Counted from the stretch's first letter, positions 1-6,920 are shown. The stretch is DNA of 7,545 nt from a virus (IMGVR_UViG_2547132488_000010:1-7545), one strand, 5' to 3'. Translations and numbers: made by a program. The notes: generated by a model not told the origin, from the sequence alone.

Positions 1-18
1 ATCACGTACACGAATTAA
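1..18 (+). CDS. 3' end of upstream gene, probably a U-like tail terminator protein (partial, only the last 5 codons plus stop)
   Basis: Frame reads ...I-T-Y-T-N then TAA at 16-18, directly upstream of V as in lambda gene order. Resemblance to the lambda gpU C-terminus is from memory; far too short to be sure. Confidence 0.3.
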   Translation: MTYTN

Positions 19-23
19 GGAGG
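17..23 (+). promoter_or_regulatory. Shine-Dalgarno for the major tail protein gene
   Basis: AAGGAGG at 17-23, 5 nt upstream of ATG at 29. Confidence 0.6.
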
Positions 24-28
24 TGGTA

Positions 29-799
29 ATGACCACACCAAATCCACTGGCAAAGACGAAAGGTGCGGGGACAACGTTCTGGATGTATACCGGCAACGGC
101 GATGCGTTTGCGAACCCTTTGTCGGACACTGCCTGGCTGCGTCTTGCGATGGTGAAGGATCTGCAACCTGGCGAAATGACCGCTGATGCAGAAGATGACA
201 CGTATCTTGATGATGAGAATGCGGACTGGAAGAGCACATCTCAGGGCCAGAAAACCGCTGGCGATACGTCTGCCACACTGGCATGGCGTCCGGGCGACAG
301 CGGACAGAAAAAACTGGTTGAGTTGTTTTATTCCGGCGAGGTTTGTGCGTTTCGCATTCTGTACCCCAACGGCACAGTTGATGTTTTTCGTGGCTGGTTG
401 AGTTCGCTGGGCAAGGCGGTGACGTCAACGGAAGTGATGACCCGGACCATCAAAATCACTGGGATTGGGCGTCCGTACCTGGCGGAAGAGTGTCAGGAGG
501 TGGTCAGCGTCACCGGTGTGACGGTGACACCGACGGCGGTGACACTGCACCCTGGTGAAACGTCCGTACTGACGTTTGCGCTTGTACCGGAAAACGCCTC
601 GGATAAAACGCTCACGGTGTTTTCCACGGATCCGCAGACAGCAACGGTAAGCCTGAGCGGCCTTGTGGCTACGGTATCTGCCCGCCAGGAAGGTGTGGTC
701 AATATTGTGGGTATGAGCGGTAATGGCAGTACGGGGCAGGTGGTCACGGTGACCGTGGCCCCTGCTGAGGAGAAGAGTACCGGACGCGCCCGGGGATAA
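29..799 (+). CDS. V: Major tail tube protein (lambda gpV family) with C-terminal Ig-like (Big_2-type) domain
   Basis: ORF track 23..799 begins at GTG 23, but ATG at 29 sits 5 nt after a strong AAGGAGG, so 29 is the likelier start. The translation (PLAKTKGAGTTFWMYTGNGDAFANPLSD ... NGTVDVFRGWLSSLGKAVT) aligns along its length with lambda gpV as I recall it. C-terminal part is Thr/Val-rich (VTVTPTAVTLHPGETSVLTFALVP...). Stop TAA 797-799. Confidence 0.92.
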   Translation: MTTPNPLAKTKGAGTTFWMYTGNGDAFANPLSDTAWLRLAMVKDLQPGEMTADAEDDTYLDDENADWKSTSQGQKTAGDTSATLAWRPGDSGQKKLVELFYSGEVCAFRILYPNGTVDVFRGWLSSLGKAVTSTEVMTRTIKITGIGRPYLAEECQEVVSVTGVTVTPTAVTLHPGETSVLTFALVPENASDKTLTVFSTDPQTATVSLSGLVATVSARQEGVVNIVGMSGNGSTGQVVTVTVAPAEEKSTGRARG

Positions 800-820: not shown

Positions 821-842
821 CCCCGGTTCGCCGGGTTTTTTT
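821..842 (+). terminator. Putative rho-independent terminator or attenuator downstream of V
   Basis: Stem CCCGG (822-826), TTCG loop (827-830), stem CCGGG (831-835), then seven T (836-842). Stem is only 5 bp, so likely partial. Confidence 0.5.
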
Positions 843-859
843 ATTCGGGGAGAAGAGAG

Positions 860-1249
860 ATGTTTCTGAAACAGGATACGTTTAATTACGGCAATCAGTC
901 GGTGGTACTGAATGAACTGTCTGGTCTGCAGCGTGTGGAATACCTGGCTTATGCCCGTGAACGCGCGGCGCAGTTTGATGAGGCTTCTGCAGGAATGGAA
1001 GAAGGGGCCCGCCAGATTGCTTTTATGGAAATGGGGATGGACATCAACGCTTGGCTGGTTTCCCGTTCGTTGTGGAATGCCGACCAGTCTCAGAATGTGG
1101 CGGCGCTTTTTTCCTCCGTGCGCGTGACATGGTCCTGGGATGCGCTGGGGGTGGCGGCGGAAAGCATTCTGGCGCTGAGCGGTATGGCACTGACAGTGGC
1201 GACAGAGGGGGATGATGTGAAGGAGGTGCTGACGCCGGAAAAGTCCTGA
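860..1249 (+). CDS. G: Tail assembly chaperone G (lambda gpG family)
   Basis: 129 aa ORF starting MFLKQDTFNYGNQSVVLNELSGLQRVEYLA, similar to the lambda gpG N-terminus (MFLK...LSELSALQRIEHLA). GGAG 8 nt upstream of the ATG. Position between V and the tape measure is as expected. Stop TGA 1247-1249. Confidence 0.9.
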   Translation: MFLKQDTFNYGNQSVVLNELSGLQRVEYLAYARERAAQFDEASAGMEEGARQIAFMEMGMDINAWLVSRSLWNADQSQNVAALFSSVRVTWSWDALGVAAESILALSGMALTVATEGDDVKEVLTPEKS

Positions 1250-1572
1250 CGCAGGAAATGCAGTTTGTCATGCGGCTGGCCCGGGAGTTCCGGCGGGGCG
1301 ACTGGCGGCGAATGCTGTCAGAAATGTCAGCCACAGAACTGGGAGAGTGGGGGGATTATTTCCGGCGGCAGAGTTTCAGTGATGTGTGGCTGGATGCGCA
1401 ATTTGCCACACTGAAAACGCTGATTGTGCAGATGGTTTCCGGAAAAACCGTAGCGGCGGATATGTTCAGCCTGTTGCCCTCAGAGACAGAAGCGCTCGTC
1501 CGGACAGATGAAGAACTGATGTTTCTGGGGGAAGGTATCGCGGGAGGAATAAGAATTGAGCCAGATAGCTGA
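860..1572 (+). CDS. GT: Tail assembly chaperone G-T fusion made by programmed -1 ribosomal frameshift near the 3' end of G (T-specific part about 1216/1240 to 1572)
   Basis: The -1 frame relative to G is open from 1216 (after TGA 1213-1215) through stop TGA 1570-1572 and encodes 1258..1572 in the track (MQFVMRLAREFRRGDWRR...). This matches the conserved G/GT arrangement of long-tailed phages. The exact shift position is not determined. Confidence 0.7.
1237..1243 (+). promoter_or_regulatory. Candidate -1 frameshift (slippery) site for G-T
   Basis: In the G frame: CCG GAA AAG TCC TGA. GGAAAAG at 1237-1243 lets tRNA-Lys on AAG re-pair with AAA in the -1 frame. It lies 4 nt before the G stop and inside the 1216-1246 overlap of the two frames. 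Not the canonical lambda GGGAAAG. Confidence 0.4.
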
Positions 1573-2440
1573 TCTTGTTATTGATTTAAGTGTTGATGCG
1601 GCTGATTTTAAGGAACAGCTTCCGCGTATCAAAGCACAGCTCAACGGTACCGCCAGCGAAGCGGCGCGTGCGGAGGCGCGGGTCAGGCAGTTTGAAGCGA
1701 GTCAGAAGCAGGCGGCGACCACCGCAGTGAAACAGGCTCAGGCGCTGGCAGGGAATGCGCAGAAGCATGTTTCGCTGGCGGAGAATGTGGAGAAGACCCG
1801 TCAGCGACTTGATGCCCTGAACCGGAAAATGCGCGAGGAGCAGGCGCAGGCGGCGGCACTGGCTGCTGCTCAGGATAAAGCCGCTGCTGCATTTTACCGT
1901 CAGATTGACAGTGTGAAACAGGCGGGGGCCGGACTGCAGGAGCTGCAGCGTATTCAGCAGCAGGTCCGTCAGGCCAGAAACAATGGTGGCATCGCGCAGC
2001 AGGATTATCTGGCGTTAATCTCCGAAGTGACGGCAAAAACCCGCGTGCTGGCTCAGGCTGAAGAATCCGCCGCCCGCCAGAAGACGGCCTTTATCCGGCG
2101 GCTGAAGGAGCAGGTATCCGCTCAGAATCTTTCATCCACGGAGCTGCTCAGGGCAAAAGCCGCGCAGCTGGGTGTCAGTAGTGCGGCTGAGGTGTATATC
2201 AGCAAAATGGAAAAAGCCGGGAAGGTCACGCATTCGCTGGGGCTGAAAAGTGCGGCGGCCCGCCAGGAGATGGGTGTTCTGATAGGTGAAATTGCCCGGG
2301 GTAATTTCGGTGCGCTTCGTGGCTCCGGGATCACCCTGGCTAACCGTGCCGGCTGGATTGATAAATTAATGACTCCGAAAGGCCTGGCGGTGGGGGGGGG
2401 TTATCGGAGGGATCACTGCTGCGGTTATTGGTCTGGGTAA
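1556..2440 (+). CDS. H: Tail tape measure protein, N-terminal segment (first of two ORFs of a frame-disrupted H-like gene)
   Basis: Begins MSQIADLVIDLSVDAADFKEQ, resembling the lambda gpH N-terminus (MAEPVGDLVVDLSLDAARFDEQ). Apparent TTG start at 1556 with GGAGG 8 nt upstream; the frame only opens at 1553. Overlaps the T stop. A/Q/R-rich predicted coiled coil. Frame ends at TAA 2438-2440, just after the G9 tract. Confidence 0.85.
   Translation: MSQIADLVIDLSVDAADFKEQLPRIKAQLNGTASEAARAEARVRQFEASQKQAATTAVKQAQALAGNAQKHVSLAENVEKTRQRLDALNRKMREEQAQAAALAAAQDKAAAAFYRQIDSVKQAGAGLQELQRIQQQVRQARNNGGIAQQDYLALISEVTAKTRVLAQAEESAARQKTAFIRRLKEQVSAQNLSSTELLRAKAAQLGVSSAAEVYISKMEKAGKVTHSLGLKSAAARQEMGVLIGEIARGNFGALRGSGITLANRAGWIDKLMTPKGLAVGGGYRRDHCCGYWSG
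2392..2400 (+). repeat. Homopolymeric G9 tract at the junction of the two tape-measure ORFs
   Basis: tGGGGGGGGGtt read directly from the sequence. Upstream ORF is in frame 2, downstream ORF in frame 0; the downstream frame is open from 2373. Confidence 0.95.
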
Positions 2441-2447
2441 AGCCTGG

Positions 2448-4589
2448 ATGGAGGGGCGGGAAGAAGGCGAAGCCTTTAACCGGCAGCTTGAGCTCACCGG
2501 ACACTATGCCGGTGTGACAGTCGGGCAGTTGTGGGCGCTCAGTAAAAATCTTTCCGGTAATGGCATCACGCAACATGCCATGGCGGGGTCACTGGCGCAG
2601 GTAGTGGGGAGCGGTGCATTTCACGGTAACGATATTGGTATGGTGGCGAAAGCTGCCGCACAGATGGAACGCTCGGTAGGGCAGTCTGTCAGTGACACCA
2701 TCAGTCAGTTTAAACGGCTGAAGGATGATCCGGTCAGTGCTGCGAAGGCGCTGGATGATGAACTGCATTTTCTGACAGCCACCCAGCTTGAACAGATCCG
2801 TGTGCTCGGAGAGCAGGGGCGCACCAGTGACGCCGCCCGGATAGCCATGTCTGCACTGGCAGAGGAAACCGGTAAACGTACGTCGGATATTGATAATAAC
2901 CTCAATGCGCTGGGCAGTACGCTGCAAACCTTGTCTGACTGGTGGAAGCAGTTCTGGGATGCGGCCATGAACATTGGTCGGGAAGATTCCCTTGATGCGC
3001 AGATTGCGTCGCTGCAGGAAAAAATTCAGCGGGCGAAGAAATTTCCGTGGACTAAGGCGTCCACCACGGTGGAATACGATCAGCAACAACTGGATGCGCT
3101 GCAAGAGCGAAAGCGCCAGCAGGATTTGCAGGATGCAAAAGAGCAGGCTGAGCGAAATTATCAGGAGCAGCAGAAACGCCGGAATGCTGAAAATGCCGCG
3201 CTGAACCGGATGAACGAAACGGAAGCAGCACGACATCAGCGTGAAATTGCGCGTATTAATGCCATGCAGTACGCCGATCAGGCGGTCAGGGACGCAGCGA
3301 TACAGCGTGAAAATGAACGTTACGAAAAAGCCATTAAGAAAAAAACATCTGAAAACCGCAATGATGAAGCTACCCGGTTGCTGTTGCAGTACAGTCAGCA
3401 GCAGGCGCAGGTGGAGGGGCAGATCGCCGCCGCCAGACAGTCCGCGGGACTGACCACGGAAAAAATGACGGAAGCGCATAAGCAGCTTCTGGCCCTGCAG
3501 CAGCGTATCAGTGATTTAGCCGGTAAAAAGCTGACGGCAGATGAAAAAAGCGTGCTGGCGCATAAGGATGAACTGATTCAGGCGCTGACGCTGCTGGATG
3601 CAAAACAGCAGGAGCTGCAGAAGCAGACGGCGCTGAATGACCTTAAGAAAAAATCTATTCAGCTTGCCAGCCAGCTGGCGGAAGAGGAACGGACTCTGCG
3701 TCAGCAACATGACCTGGATATCGCCACGACAGGGATGGGGGATAAACAGCGTCAGCGATACCAGGCGCAGTTCAGTCTGCAACAAAAATACCAGCAGCAA
3801 CTGGAACAGCTGGAGCGTGACAGTAAGCAGAAAGGAACATACGGCACAGATGAATACCGGAATGCTGAGCAGATGCTGACAGACAGTCTTAACCGGCAAC
3901 TGAACGAAAACAGACGTTACTGGCAGGAGCAGGAACTGATGCAGGCAGACTGGAAAAACGGTGCCATGCGGGCGTTTCAGAATTTTACAGAGAGTGCGGA
4001 TAACGCGGCAGGTACCGCTGAGCAGATGTTTACAGCGGCATTTAACAGCGCAGGTAATGCACTGGCGACGTTCTGTACCACCGGAAAACTGAACTTCAAA
4101 TCCTTTACCGCCTCGCTCCTTTCTGATCTAGCAAAAATCATGTCGCAGATGGCCATGATGCAGGCAGTTAAGGGGATTGGTTCGGCGTTTGGCTGGGGGA
4201 GTGCAGCAGCTGCCAGCGTGACGCCAAATGCGGATGGCGGTGTTTATCAGTCTGCTGATTTGAGTCGCTACAGTGGCACGGTGGTTAACCGTCCGACGTT
4301 TTTTGCTTTTGCAAAAGGCGCGGGTGTGATGGGAGAAGCGGGGCCTGAAGCCATTCTGCCACTGCGTCGTGGTGCTGATGGCAAGCTGGGAGTTGTGGCG
4401 GATATTGGTGGTTCAGGTATGGTGATGTTTGCCCCGCAGTACAACATCGAGATCAATAACGATGGTACGAACGGGCAGATAGGTCCGGCTGCCCTGAAGG
4501 TGGTTTATGACCTCGGGAAAAAAGCAGCAGCGGACTTTATGCAACAGCAGTCCCGTGATGGTGGTCAGTTAAGCGGAGCGTATCGGTAA
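2448..4589 (+). CDS. H: Tail tape measure protein, C-terminal segment (second ORF of the frame-disrupted H-like gene)
   Basis: 713 aa from the first ATG, but the frame is open from 2373 and encodes a Gly-rich hydrophobic stretch (VIGGITAAVIGLGKAW) before that ATG. Q/E/R-rich coiled-coil core. C-terminus ...INNDGTNGQIGPAALKVVYDLGKKAAADFMQQQSRDGGQLSGAYR matches the lambda gpH C-terminus (...INNDGTNGQIGPAALKAVYDMARKGARDE...RDGGLFSGGGR) as I recall it. Stop TAA 4587-4589. Confidence 0.88.
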   Translation: MEGREEGEAFNRQLELTGHYAGVTVGQLWALSKNLSGNGITQHAMAGSLAQVVGSGAFHGNDIGMVAKAAAQMERSVGQSVSDTISQFKRLKDDPVSAAKALDDELHFLTATQLEQIRVLGEQGRTSDAARIAMSALAEETGKRTSDIDNNLNALGSTLQTLSDWWKQFWDAAMNIGREDSLDAQIASLQEKIQRAKKFPWTKASTTVEYDQQQLDALQERKRQQDLQDAKEQAERNYQEQQKRRNAENAALNRMNETEAARHQREIARINAMQYADQAVRDAAIQRENERYEKAIKKKTSENRNDEATRLLLQYSQQQAQVEGQIAAARQSAGLTTEKMTEAHKQLLALQQRISDLAGKKLTADEKSVLAHKDELIQALTLLDAKQQELQKQTALNDLKKKSIQLASQLAEEERTLRQQHDLDIATTGMGDKQRQRYQAQFSLQQKYQQQLEQLERDSKQKGTYGTDEYRNAEQMLTDSLNRQLNENRRYWQEQELMQADWKNGAMRAFQNFTESADNAAGTAEQMFTAAFNSAGNALATFCTTGKLNFKSFTASLLSDLAKIMSQMAMMQAVKGIGSAFGWGSAAAASVTPNADGGVYQSADLSRYSGTVVNRPTFFAFAKGAGVMGEAGPEAILPLRRGADGKLGVVADIGGSGMVMFAPQYNIEINNDGTNGQIGPAALKVVYDLGKKAAADFMQQQSRDGGQLSGAYR

Positions 4590-5631: not shown

Positions 5632-6375
5632 ATGACAGAGACAGAATCAGCGATTCTGGCGCACGCCCGGCGATGTGCGCCAGCGGAGTCGTGCGGCTTC
5701 GTGGTGAGAACGCCGGAGGAGGAAAGATATTTTCCCTGCGTGAATATCTCCGGTGAACCGGAGGATTATTTCCGGATGGCTCCGGAGGACTGGCTGCGGG
5801 CCAAAATGCAGGGTGAGATTGTGGCGCTGGTCCACAGTCACCCCGGTGGTCTGCCCTGGCTGAGTGAGGCTGACCGGCGGCTGCAGGTGCAGAGTGATTT
5901 GCCGTGGTGGCTGGTCTGCCGGGGTGAGATTCACAAGTTCCGCTGTGTGTCGCATCTCACCGGGCGTCGCTTTGAGCACGGGGTGACGGACTGTTACACG
6001 CTGTTCCGGGATGCTTACCATCTGGCGGGGATTGAGATGCCGGATTTTCATCGCGGGGATGACTGGTGGCGTAACGGTCAGAATCTCTATCTTGACAATA
6101 TGGAGGCGACGGGTTTTTACCGTGTCGCACTGACAGAGGCGCAGCCGGGCGATGTGCTGCTGTGCTGCTTTGGATCATCGGTGCCGAATCATGCCGCCAT
6201 TTACTGTGGCGGCGGCGAGCTGCTGCACCATATTCCTGAACAACTGAGCAAACGAGAGAGGTACACCGACAAATGGCAGCGACGCACACACTCCCTCTGG
6301 CGTCACCGGGCATGGCACGCATCTGCCTTTACGGGGATTTACAACGATTTGGCCGCCGCATCGATCTGCGTGTGA
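5632..6375 (+). CDS. K: Tail tip assembly protein K (lambda gpK family), MPN/JAMM-like plus NlpC/P60-like domains
   Basis: JAMM-type motif visible as HSHPGGLPWLSEAD (H-x-H-x7-S-x2-D). Downstream Cys and His (VTDCYTLF, NHAAIY, ELLHHIPEQ) fit an NlpC/P60-type Cys-His-His arrangement. C-terminus ...LLHHIPEQLSKRERYTDKWQRRTHSLWRHRAW... matches lambda gpK as recalled. Starts 5 nt after the L stop. Confidence 0.9.
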   Translation: MTETESAILAHARRCAPAESCGFVVRTPEEERYFPCVNISGEPEDYFRMAPEDWLRAKMQGEIVALVHSHPGGLPWLSEADRRLQVQSDLPWWLVCRGEIHKFRCVSHLTGRRFEHGVTDCYTLFRDAYHLAGIEMPDFHRGDDWWRNGQNLYLDNMEATGFYRVALTEAQPGDVLLCCFGSSVPNHAAIYCGGGELLHHIPEQLSKRERYTDKWQRRTHSLWRHRAWHASAFTGIYNDLAAASICV

Positions 6376-6920
6376 AAACGGGGGCCGAAGCCATCCGGGC
6401 GCTGGCCATGCAGATCCCGGCGTTTCGTCAGAAGCTGAGCGACGGCTGGTATCAGGTACGCATTGCCGGGCGGGATACAGGCGAAAACGAATTATCTGCC
6501 CGTCTTAATGAGCCGCTGGCAAATGGTGCAGTGATCCACATCGTACCGCGTCTGGCGGGTGCCAAAAGTGGCGGTGTGTTTCAGGCTGTGCTGGGGGCTG
6601 CGCTGATTGCGGTGGCATGGTGGAACCCTGTGGGCTGGCTGGGTGCCGCGGCTGTATCGGGTATGTATGCGGCAGGGGCCAGTATGATCCTGGGCGGTGT
6701 GGCGCAGATGCTGGCACCGAAAGCCAGAACTCCCCGCACACAGGCAACAGATAACGGCAAACAGAACACCTATTTCTCCTCACTGGATAACATGGTTGCA
6801 CAGGGTAATTCGCTGCCGGTGCTGTATGGCGAAATGCGCGTGGGGTCGCGGGTGGTTTCTCAGGAGATCAGCACGGCAGATGAAGGTGATGGTGGTCAGG
6901 TTGTGGTGATTGGTCGCTGA
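6273..6920 (+). CDS. I: Tail tip assembly protein I (lambda gpI family)
   Basis: MAATHTLPLASPGMARICLYGDLQRFGRRIDLRVKTGAEAIRALA... and C-terminus ...KQNTYFSSLDNMVAQGNSLPVLYGEMRVGSRVVSQEISTADEGDGGQVVVIGR are near-identical to lambda gpI as I recall it. Overlaps the 3' end of K by 103 nt in another frame. Alternative in-frame ATG at 6312 has no obvious RBS. Confidence 0.88.
   Translation: MAATHTLPLASPGMARICLYGDLQRFGRRIDLRVKTGAEAIRALAMQIPAFRQKLSDGWYQVRIAGRDTGENELSARLNEPLANGAVIHIVPRLAGAKSGGVFQAVLGAALIAVAWWNPVGWLGAAAVSGMYAAGASMILGGVAQMLAPKARTPRTQATDNGKQNTYFSSLDNMVAQGNSLPVLYGEMRVGSRVVSQEISTADEGDGGQVVVIGR

What the first reader, a model, noticed from the sequence alone, without database searches (positions are those of the whole stretch)
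1216..1258. G-T programmed frameshift appears to use a non-canonical slippery sequence
The G/GT arrangement is conserved: the -1 frame is open from 1216 and continues through the T-like ORF to 1572. The only slippery-looking sequence in the 1216-1246 overlap is CCG GAA AAG (1235-1243), not the lambda GGGAAAG heptamer. A single-tRNA slip of tRNA-Lys from AAG to AAA would give the junction ...VLTPEK/VLTQEMQFVMRLA... The shift site and efficiency set the G:GT ratio needed for tail assembly.
Basis: partly seen in the sequence, partly recalled or inferred. Interest (0 to 1): 0.5.

Follow-up and report, generated by a model that had tools for sequence, protein, structure and literature searches.

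The report
Ordinary phage tail G-T frameshift site
This is the usual programmed -1 ribosomal frameshift that makes the G-T tail-assembly fusion protein of a lambda-like prophage, and its GGAAAAG slip site differs from lambda's by one base but is the commonest form in this gene family and is already annotated in phage N15.

Summary
Gene G (860-1249, Pfam Phage_TAC_2) is overlapped by a -1 frame that is open from 1216 to 1572 and encodes a T domain (Phage_tail_T). The only in-frame slip motif in the overlap is G_GAA_AAG at 1237-1243. A slip there gives a 237-aa fusion, ...VLTPEK/VLTQEMQFVMRLAREF, which aligns without a gap to the lambda and N15 GT junctions.

The site is not unusual for this family. 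It sits exactly where lambda has G_GGA_AAG. GGAAAAG was found in 33 of 38 distinct junction contexts and GGGAAAG in the other 5. The N15 GenBank record annotates the same heptamer as the slippery sequence.

All 21 diverged representatives keep the G before GAA (CCG, GCG or CTG), GAA rather than GAG, and AAG rather than AAA, while the neighbouring codon varies freely.

No conserved downstream structure was found. A 9-nt Shine-Dalgarno-like AAGGAGGTG (1220-1228) lies at dnaX-like spacing, but it is not conserved across the family, so it is only a candidate stimulator.

Verdict: already known, low interest.

The parts
860..1249 (+). Gene G, the tail assembly chaperone (129 aa), in the zero frame
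   Evidence: ORF listed. Pfam PF06894 Phage_TAC_2, E=6.5e-35. RefSeq annotates the 98.8%-identical E. coli copy as gpG.
1237..1243 (+). Slippery heptamer G_GAA_AAG, the -1 shift site. It contains the A_AAG tetramer at 1240-1243.
   Evidence: Only in-frame slip motif in the overlap and the only GGRAAAG in the window. Positional homologue of lambda G_GGA_AAG and identical to the heptamer annotated as slippery in N15. Invariant as GGRAAAG in 38 distinct contexts. Synonymous positions are fixed in 21 of 21 representatives.
1216..1572 (+). The -1 frame ORF. After the slip, 1243-1569 encodes the 109-aa T domain of the 237-aa GT fusion. 1216-1242 is open but is inferred not to be translated.
   Evidence: Frame boundaries. 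Pfam PF06223 Phage_tail_T, E=5.3e-11. The conceptual fusion aligns through the junction with lambda GT and N15 GT without a gap there.
1213..1215 (+). TGA stop in the -1 frame that sets the 5' limit of the shift window
   Evidence: In relatives the equivalent stop leaves only 22 nt (O157-type) or 16 nt (L227) of overlap, and these still contain the heptamer.
1247..1249 (+). TGA stop of G, one codon after the shift site
1220..1228 (+). Shine-Dalgarno-like AAGGAGGTG inside G. Candidate upstream frameshift stimulator (inferred, not shown).
   Evidence: One of three matches of 8 nt or more to the SD consensus on the + strand of the window. SD-like motifs end 9-13 nt before base 2 of the heptamer, which meets the published 6-17 nt criterion (PMC4066793). 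By my own count from the sequence, 11 nt separate the end of AAGGAG (1225) from the heptamer (1237). An SD-like motif in range is present in only 8 of 21 representatives, against an 18% background, and in 2 of 4 further Salmonella copies.
1244..1256 (+). Small hairpin TCCTG-ACG-CAGGA directly after the heptamer. Probably irrelevant.
   Evidence: Predicted. It has no spacer, so it would lie inside the ribosome. It is absent in Gifsy-2, lambda and N15. No conserved structure appears in the 24-sequence alignment.
822..845 (+). Terminator-like hairpin plus T-run between V and G (context)
   Evidence: A terminator or stem-loop is annotated at the same place in phages Ayreon, N15 and HK225.
23..799 (+). 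Major tail protein V homologue (context). By reading the sequence, the true start is probably ATG at 29, after the SD at 17-25.
   Evidence: Pfam PF16461 and Big_2. SD match.
1556..4589 (+). Tape measure gene H homologue (context), split here into 1556-2440 and 2448-4589
   Evidence: Pfam TMP_2, TMP_4 and Tape_meas_lam_C. The relative L002 has one intact 1010-aa ORF. The extra G lies in the G9 run at 2392-2400.

Best explanation
The window carries the V-G-T-H tail module of a lambda-like prophage. Most ribosomes translating G (860-1249) terminate at TGA 1247 and produce the 129-aa chaperone G. A minority shift back one base at G_GAA_AAG (1237-1243), when GAA is in the P site and AAG in the A site. 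tRNA-Lys re-pairs perfectly from AAG to AAA. tRNA-Glu re-pairs from GAA to GGA with G-C, G.U and A-U pairs. Translation then continues in the -1 frame from GTC 1243 to TGA 1570-1572. The product is a 237-aa G-T fusion with the junction ...VLTPEK/VLTQEMQFVMR.... By analogy with lambda, this fusion links the tape measure protein to the major tail protein in a fixed low ratio to G. Shown here: the gene identities, the frame geometry, the uniqueness of the motif, its positional homology with the lambda and N15 sites, and its selective conservation at synonymous positions. Inferred: that shifting actually occurs, its efficiency, the contribution of the P-site tRNA, and any help from the upstream SD-like AAGGAGGTG.
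For: G is PF06894 and the -1 ORF is PF06223, lying between the V and tape measure homologues. The -1 frame is open only from 1216, and A_AAG at 1240-1243 is the sole slip motif in the overlap. The lambda, N15, phi80, HK225, mEp043 and Gifsy-2 junctions align codon for codon: lambda GCG GGA AAG, N15 GCG GAA AAG, window CCG GAA AAG. The N15 record marks GGAAAAG as the slippery sequence. The conceptual fusion aligns through the junction with lambda GT (E=1e-34) and N15 GT (E=1e-38), with no gap at the junction. GGRAAAG is invariant in 38 distinct contexts from about 220 loci in Escherichia, Salmonella, Serratia, Erwinia, Kluyvera, Buttiauxella, Citrobacter, Enterobacter and others. In 21 representatives sharing less than 80% amino-acid identity, the preceding codon ends in G in 21 of 21, although only about 39% of Pro and Ala codons and about 63% of Leu codons elsewhere in these genes end in G. 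Lys is AAG in 21 of 21 (AAG is 35% of Lys codons elsewhere). Glu is GAA in 19 of 19 (62% elsewhere). The third base of the next codon upstream takes all four values. The shortest overlaps, 22 nt and 16 nt, still contain the heptamer. Literature: A_AA.G is the most shift-prone tetramer in E. coli (PMC4066793). A_AAG sites with non-slippery 5' codons are used naturally, for example IS1222 G_CGA_AAG, and their efficiency depends on the 5' codon (PMC5009743). Lambda needs only a low G:GT ratio of about 30:1.
Against: No protein data exist for this element. In a reconstituted E. coli system the same heptamer (AUG GAA AAG) gave mainly zero-frame product and was treated as 'less slippery', because the tRNA-Glu/GGA pairing has a second-position mismatch (PMC6924986). 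A_AA.G tetramers without a stimulator were barely above background, about 0.15% (PMC4066793). No conserved downstream stimulator was found. The tape measure gene in this copy is broken by one extra G, so the tail module may be non-functional here. The conservation statistics are not corrected for shared ancestry.
Confidence: 0.9

Rival explanations
1. Pure single-tRNA slip. Only A-site tRNA-Lys moves from AAG to AAA. The P-site tRNA-Glu does not need to re-pair, so the functional motif is the tetramer A_AAG. The junction peptide would be the same.
For: [quoted passage not shown] A_AAG tetramer and hexamer sites are used naturally, for example in IS1222 and Bacillus cdd.
Against: The first base of the heptamer is G in every representative, although it is a degenerate third position of three different codons, while the next codon upstream varies freely. 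A tetramer-only mechanism places no constraint on that base. The only alternative seen at heptamer position 3 is G (lambda type), which also allows P-site re-pairing.
Confidence: 0.3
2. No frameshift occurs. T is made on its own from ATG 1258 as a 104-aa protein, as RefSeq and most phage records annotate it.
For: ATG at 1258 with an ORF to 1572. PGAP and several phage records list T as a separate CDS.
Against: The aligned codon is CTG (Leu) in lambda, N15, phi80 and relatives, so the ATG is not a conserved start. By reading the sequence, the only SD-like bases (AGGA, 1253-1256) lie 1 nt from the ATG. Amino-acid conservation of the -1 frame begins right at the heptamer (K-V-L/F...E-L/M-x-F), five codons before the ATG. 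The synonymous-site fixation of the heptamer would be unexplained. Per the review of the lambda work, the T part is described only as a domain of the frameshift product gpGT.
Confidence: 0.05
3. The frame change happens elsewhere or by another mechanism, such as another site in 1216-1246 or RNA polymerase slippage on the A4 run.
For: None specific. A 31-nt overlap in principle allows other sites.
Against: The overlap contains no other Z_ZZN or X_XXY_YYZ motif. Relatives narrow the permissive window to 16-22 nt around the heptamer. From general knowledge, four A residues are far below the run length usually needed for transcriptional slippage. The family consensus keeps AAG rather than lengthening the A run.
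Confidence: 0.02
4. The site is intact but idle. This copy belongs to a decaying prophage whose tail genes no longer work, so the frameshift currently has no function in this genome.
For: The tape measure gene is split by an extra G in a G9 run (2392-2400), whereas the closest relative has an intact 1010-aa ORF.
Against: A single-base difference in a homopolymer is a typical sequencing or assembly error. All other tail ORFs in the window are intact. G, T and the heptamer show no damage.
Confidence: 0.25

Closest known systems
Phage lambda G/GT programmed -1 frameshift (G_GGA_AAG). Levin, Hendrix and Casjens 1993, and Xu, Hendrix and Duda 2004/2013/2014, as summarised in PMC5009743.
   Same: The Pfam families match (G is PF06894, T is PF06223). 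The gene order V-G-T-H matches. The -1 overlap lies at the 3' end of G, and the shift codon AAG is at the homologous position. The junction is colinear. No conserved downstream stimulator was found.
   Different: Heptamer position 3 is A rather than G, so the P-site codon is GAA (Glu) rather than GGA (Gly), and re-pairing needs a G.U pair at the middle position. The G stop lies 1 codon after the site rather than 5. G shares only about 32% identity with lambda G.
Phage N15 genes 14/15 (also phi80, HK225, mEp043, Gifsy-2 G/T)
   Same: The heptamer GGAAAAG is identical and at the same position. In N15 it is explicitly annotated as 'slippery sequence for -1 translational frameshift'.
   Different: The preceding codon is GCG (Ala) in N15, phi80, HK225 and mEp043, and CCG (Pro) in the window and in Gifsy-2. 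N15, phi80, HK225 and mEp043 have no SD-like motif upstream.
E. coli dnaX -1 frameshift (A_AAA_AAG with an upstream SD-like element and a downstream hairpin)
   Same: The A-site slip is AAG to AAA by the single E. coli tRNA-Lys. The window has an internal SD-like sequence within the published 6-17 nt stimulatory range. By my own count the gap is 11 nt, against 10 nt in dnaX from general knowledge.
   Different: There is no downstream hairpin. The P-site codon is not slippery. The SD-like element is not conserved in the family. The expected efficiency is low rather than about 50%.
Tetramer and hexamer A_AAG sites (IS1222 G_CGA_AAG, Bacillus cdd A_CGA_AAG)
   Same: An A_AAG A-site slip follows a P-site codon that cannot re-pair perfectly. 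The frameshifting is low-level and its efficiency depends on the 5' codon.
   Different: Here the 5' codon is GAA and the preceding base is conserved as G. This allows near-cognate P-site re-pairing, so the site behaves more like a degenerate heptamer than a pure tetramer.

Membership tests
Lambda-type G/GT tail assembly chaperone with programmed -1 frameshift | The upstream ORF is a lambda-G-type tail assembly chaperone | tested here: met
   PF06894, E=6.5e-35, covering residues 1-118.
Lambda-type G/GT tail assembly chaperone with programmed -1 frameshift | The downstream ORF is in the -1 frame, overlaps the 3' end of G and encodes a T domain | tested here: met
   The -1 frame is open from 1216 to 1572, a 31-nt overlap. 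PF06223, E=5.3e-11.
Lambda-type G/GT tail assembly chaperone with programmed -1 frameshift | The gene pair lies between the major tail protein gene and the tape measure gene | tested here: met
   V homologue at 23-799 and tape measure at 1556-4589. The order is the same in the annotated relatives.
Lambda-type G/GT tail assembly chaperone with programmed -1 frameshift | An in-frame slippery motif lies within the overlap, conserved among homologues and homologous to the lambda site | tested here: met
   G_GAA_AAG at 1237-1243. GGRAAAG is invariant in 38 contexts. Synonymous sites are fixed in 21 of 21 representatives.
Lambda-type G/GT tail assembly chaperone with programmed -1 frameshift | T has no independent initiation and is made only as a fusion | tested here: inconclusive
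   An ATG exists at 1258, but it aligns to CTG in lambda and N15, and by reading the sequence it has only an AGGA 1 nt upstream. This needs protein data.
Lambda-type G/GT tail assembly chaperone with programmed -1 frameshift | A GT fusion protein is produced at a low fixed ratio to G and is required for tail assembly | not testable with these tools
   No expression data. The large protein collection holds no slippage product with a PEK/VLT junction, only deletion fusions.
Canonical X_XXY_YYZ tandem-slippage heptamer | The first three bases are identical, so the P-site tRNA re-pairs with a change only at the wobble position | tested here: not met
   The heptamer is G_GAA_AAG. The -1 P-site codon is GGA against the zero-frame GAA, which is a second-position G.U pair (PMC6924986).
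Canonical X_XXY_YYZ tandem-slippage heptamer | The A-site codon is YYZ with a YYY -1 codon read by the same tRNA | tested here: met
   A_AAG goes to AAA, and both are read by the single E. coli tRNA-Lys.
SD-stimulated -1 frameshift (dnaX and IS911 type) | [quoted passage not shown] | tested here: met
   AAGGAGGTG at 1220-1228, with SD-like motifs ending 9-13 nt upstream.
SD-stimulated -1 frameshift (dnaX and IS911 type) | The SD-like element is conserved among homologues (at least 50% of the cluster, the criterion of PMC4066793) | tested here: inconclusive
   It is present in 8 of 21 representatives against an 18% background. It is present in 5 of 5 representatives of the window's own Pro-Glu-Lys clade, but in only 2 of 4 further Salmonella members. 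It also coincides with a conserved Glu codon followed by an Ala or Val codon.

The most novel reading that the evidence does not exclude
The commonest natural G-T shift site in lambda-G-family phages is a heptamer that mechanistic work treats as a poorly slippery control (G_GAA_AAG). The fixed G at its first position would then mean that second-position G.U re-pairing of P-site tRNA-Glu contributes in vivo. In the window's clade (E. coli O157-type prophages, Gifsy-2), a dnaX-like internal Shine-Dalgarno element, strongest in this window as AAGGAGGTG, would have been recruited to raise the efficiency of this weak site to the level that tail assembly needs.
Probability: 0.3. Interest if true: 0.35.

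Novelty: already known. Interest (0 to 1): 0.15.

Why it matters
The practical value is for annotation. RefSeq and most phage records for this clade list T as a separate 104-120-aa protein and omit the 237-aa GT fusion, so the shift site given here (1237-1243) could be used to annotate it correctly. For frameshift mechanics there is a small point. Natural selection keeps all seven bases of G_GAA_AAG, including the first G, in a heptamer that in vitro work uses as a 'less slippery' control. This suggests that near-cognate P-site re-pairing matters at low-efficiency sites. Neither point changes what is known about tail assembly.

Tried and rejected
(1) Downstream stimulatory structure. Folding 1244-1340 gave z=-1.06, which is not significant. 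Per-sequence folds of 24 homologues show a GGCGCG...CGCGCC hairpin about 33 nt downstream in the lambda, N15 and phi80 group but not in the window. RNAalifold found no conserved structure and no covariation. Rejected.

(2) The 5-bp hairpin at 1244-1256. It has no spacer and is absent in other clades. Rejected as a stimulator.

(3) Other slip sites in the overlap. None exist.

(4) Literature on GGAAAAG in phage tails. Full-text searches found no phage paper. Xu et al. 2004 is not held. The PRFect supplement has no entry. PRFect does list non-XXXYYYZ motif classes, including one named 'twofour', and discusses tRNA-Glu re-binding GGA through G.U. I could not see the definition of 'twofour', which is in a supplementary figure.

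(5) Database evidence for an annotated fusion. The four proteins carrying both G and T domains (P0044, P0086, P0114, P0121) are deletion fusions, not slippage products.

(6) The SD-like element as a family-wide feature. It is not conserved.

(7) Ribosome queuing at the nearby UGA stop. By geometry, a trailing ribosome would sit about 10 codons upstream, not on the heptamer. This was considered by reasoning only and not pursued.

Full report
What is in the window. The + strand carries a lambda-like tail module. It has a major tail protein V homologue (23-799; Pfam Phage_TTP_12 plus Big_2) and G (860-1249; Phage_TAC_2, E=6.5e-35). A -1 frame ORF carries a T domain (Phage_tail_T, E=5.3e-11). A tape measure gene follows (1556-4589; TMP_2, TMP_4, Tape_meas_lam_C), and then homologues of the lambda M, L, K, I and J region, as annotated in the closest relative. 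The nearest public copy is a prophage in E. coli MB06234, which is 98.8% identical over 820-1600 and 94.6% over the whole window. About 1,300 complete E. coli genomes carry a 77%-identical G-T region, and named phages (Ayreon, phi458 and others) are at 77%.

Checking the observation. The G frame ends ...GTG AAG GAG GTG CTG ACG CCG GAA AAG TCC TGA (1217-1249). The -1 frame has TGA at 1213-1215 and is then open to 1572. Enumerating every G-frame codon in the overlap finds one Z_ZZN motif, A_AAG at 1240-1243, and no X_XXY_YYZ heptamer. In-frame A_AAG is rare in this window, at 4 in 2187 codons, so about 0.02 would be expected in the overlap. GGRAAAG occurs only once in 7.5 kb on either strand.

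What the site is. Placing the window beside annotated phages shows that the heptamer is the positional homologue of the lambda shift site. Lambda has ...TCT GCG GGA AAG TGT... and N15 has ...ACT GCG GAA AAG CCC.... Phi80, HK225 and mEp043 have GCG GAA AAG. Gifsy-2 has ACG CCG GAA AAG TCC TGA, and the window has ACG CCG GAA AAG TCC TGA. The N15 RefSeq record carries a misc_feature, 'slippery sequence for -1 translational frameshift', whose coordinates fall exactly on GGAAAAG. Gifsy-2 and HK225 annotate the downstream ORF as part of the G-T frameshift product. The conceptual 237-aa fusion (G residues 1-128 plus 109 residues from 1243) aligns with lambda GT (E=1e-34) and N15 GT (E=1e-38). There is no gap at the junction: KEVLTPEK-VLTQEMQFVMRLAREF against AEPVSAGK-VFDGELSFALKLAREM and AEPVTAEK-ALASELKFAMKLAREF. 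Conservation in the -1 frame begins at the heptamer. Upstream of it the -1 frame is unrelated between phages, and the overlap length ranges from 16 to 82 nt.

How general the heptamer is. I collected about 220 loci from IMG/VR, GTDB genomes, GenBank phages and assemblies. They give 38 distinct 70-nt junction contexts, of which 33 have GGAAAAG and 5 have GGGAAAG. The GGGAAAG group comprises lambda, Stx2a phages and E. albertii or Escherichia prophages. GGAAAAG is found in Escherichia, Shigella, Salmonella, Serratia, Symbiopectobacterium, Erwinia, Kluyvera, Buttiauxella, Citrobacter, Enterobacter, Yokenella, Superficieibacter and Entomohabitans. The 'non-canonical' form is thus the norm for this family, and lambda is the minority variant.

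Mechanism. I reduced the set to 21 G genes that share less than 80% amino-acid identity.
- The Lys codon is AAG in 21 of 21. Elsewhere in the same genes AAG is 35% of Lys codons.
- The preceding codon is GAA in 19 and GGA in 2, and never GAG. GAA is 62% of Glu codons elsewhere.
- The codon before that is CCG, GCG or CTG, three different amino acids, and always ends in G. G-ending codons are about 39% of Pro and Ala codons and about 63% of Leu codons elsewhere.
- The next codon upstream uses all four bases at its third position (ACG, TCG, TCT, ACT, ACA, CCA, AGT, AGC).

Upstream of the shift the -1 frame is not translated, so the fixed G cannot be a coding constraint. It is the base that lets the P-site tRNA (tRNA-Glu, anticodon UUC, or tRNA-Gly in lambda) keep its first-position G-C pair after moving back one base. 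The counts are not corrected for phylogeny, and the two models give the same peptide, so this remains an inference.

The literature fits a low-efficiency site. A_AA.G is the best tetramer in E. coli, but it is barely above background without a stimulator and reaches 5.6% with a pseudoknot (PMC4066793). A_AAG sites with non-slippery 5' codons are used naturally, and their efficiency depends on the 5' codon (PMC5009743). In a reconstituted system AUG GAA AAG gave mainly zero-frame product and was called 'less slippery' (PMC6924986). Lambda needs only about one GT per 30 G.

Stimulators. Downstream, the 97-nt fold is not significant (z=-1.06), and a 24-sequence alignment has no consensus structure or covariation. 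The small hairpin at 1244-1256 abuts the heptamer and is not conserved. Upstream, the window has AAGGAGGTG at 1220-1228, a 9-nt match to the SD consensus and one of only three matches of 8 nt or more on the + strand. SD-like motifs there end 9-13 nt before base 2 of the heptamer, inside the 6-17 nt range that PMC4066793 used for experimentally validated SD stimulators. By my own count from the sequence, 11 nt separate the end of AAGGAG from the heptamer; from general knowledge the gap in dnaX is 10 nt. An SD-like motif in range is present in 8 of 21 representatives, against an 18% background. It is present in all five representatives of the window's Pro-Glu-Lys clade, but in only two of four additional Salmonella members. 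It also coincides with a conserved Glu codon followed by an Ala or Val codon. It is a plausible modulator in this particular phage, not a defining part of the signal.

Rivals. Independent initiation of T at ATG 1258, as annotated by PGAP and several phage records, is unlikely. The ATG aligns with CTG in lambda and N15. By reading the sequence, its only SD-like bases are 1 nt away. Conservation of the -1 frame starts five codons upstream, and the heptamer's synonymous-site fixation would be unexplained. Another site, or transcriptional slippage on four A residues, has no support. Whether the site still functions in this genome depends on the tape measure gene, which is split here by one extra G in a G9 run. 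That could equally be a homopolymer sequencing error.

Comparison and novelty. This is a member of the lambda G/GT frameshift system, and all sequence-testable defining features are met. Its heptamer is the type already annotated in N15. It fails the formal X_XXY_YYZ rule at one position, as do most members of its family. Searches of open full text found no experimental paper on GGAAAAG in phage tails, and Xu et al. 2004 could not be read. I therefore cannot say whether shifting at this exact heptamer has been shown at the protein level. The protein collection holds only deletion-type G-T fusions, with no slippage product annotated for this clade. I rate it already known and of low interest. 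Two modest open points remain: the role of the P-site G.U re-pairing and the SD-like element.

Noticed in passing
window 2392-2400 (tape measure gene 1556-4589): The tape measure ORF is split into 1556-2440 and 2448-4589 by one extra G in a run of nine G. The closest relative (L002) reads GTCGGCGGGGTT there and has one intact 1010-aa ORF. This could be a sequencing error, a real pseudogene or a slippage-prone tract.
   Followed up: partly
window 822-845: A terminator-like hairpin (CCCGG-TTCG-CCGGG) followed by a T-run lies between V and G. Phage Ayreon annotates a terminator, N15 a stem-loop noted as a putative rho-independent terminator, and HK225 a stem-loop at the same place. It may lower G, T and H expression relative to V.
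   Followed up: partly
L085, L087, L089, L100, L108-L110 and L112, about 33-70 nt after the heptamer: The lambda, N15 and phi80 group shares a stable hairpin (GGCGCGYGAG...CGCGCC) in the LAREFGRPDWRAM coding region of T. The window's clade has a different, weaker pairing there. No covariation was seen in the family alignment.
   Followed up: partly
proteins P0044, P0086, P0114 and P0121: Public collections hold a few single-ORF G-T fusions of 212-233 aa. In-frame deletions across the G 3' end created them. P0121, for example, reads ...DNADAGKVLTREMQ, which uses the -1 frame upstream of the heptamer. They may be assembly artefacts or natural fused variants that bypass the frameshift.
   Followed up: no
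window 16-31: A strong SD (TAAGGAGGTG, 16-25) precedes ATG 29. The V protein therefore probably starts at 29 (MTTPNPL...) rather than at the GTG at 23 given by the mechanical ORF list.
   Followed up: no
L002 12551-13093 compared with window 6273-6920: The tail assembly protein (lambda I-like) is flagged as a pseudogene with an internal stop in the closest E. coli relative, but is an intact 215-aa ORF in the window. The two copies differ by many small indels in 6599-6669.
   Followed up: no
L118-L130 (genome-contig hits): Lambda-identical G-T sequence appears on short, low-coverage contigs in assemblies of unrelated organisms such as Neobacillus, Kitasatospora, Pseudoxanthomonas, Psychrobacter and Shewanella. 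This is most likely lambda DNA contamination of the sequencing libraries.
   Followed up: no
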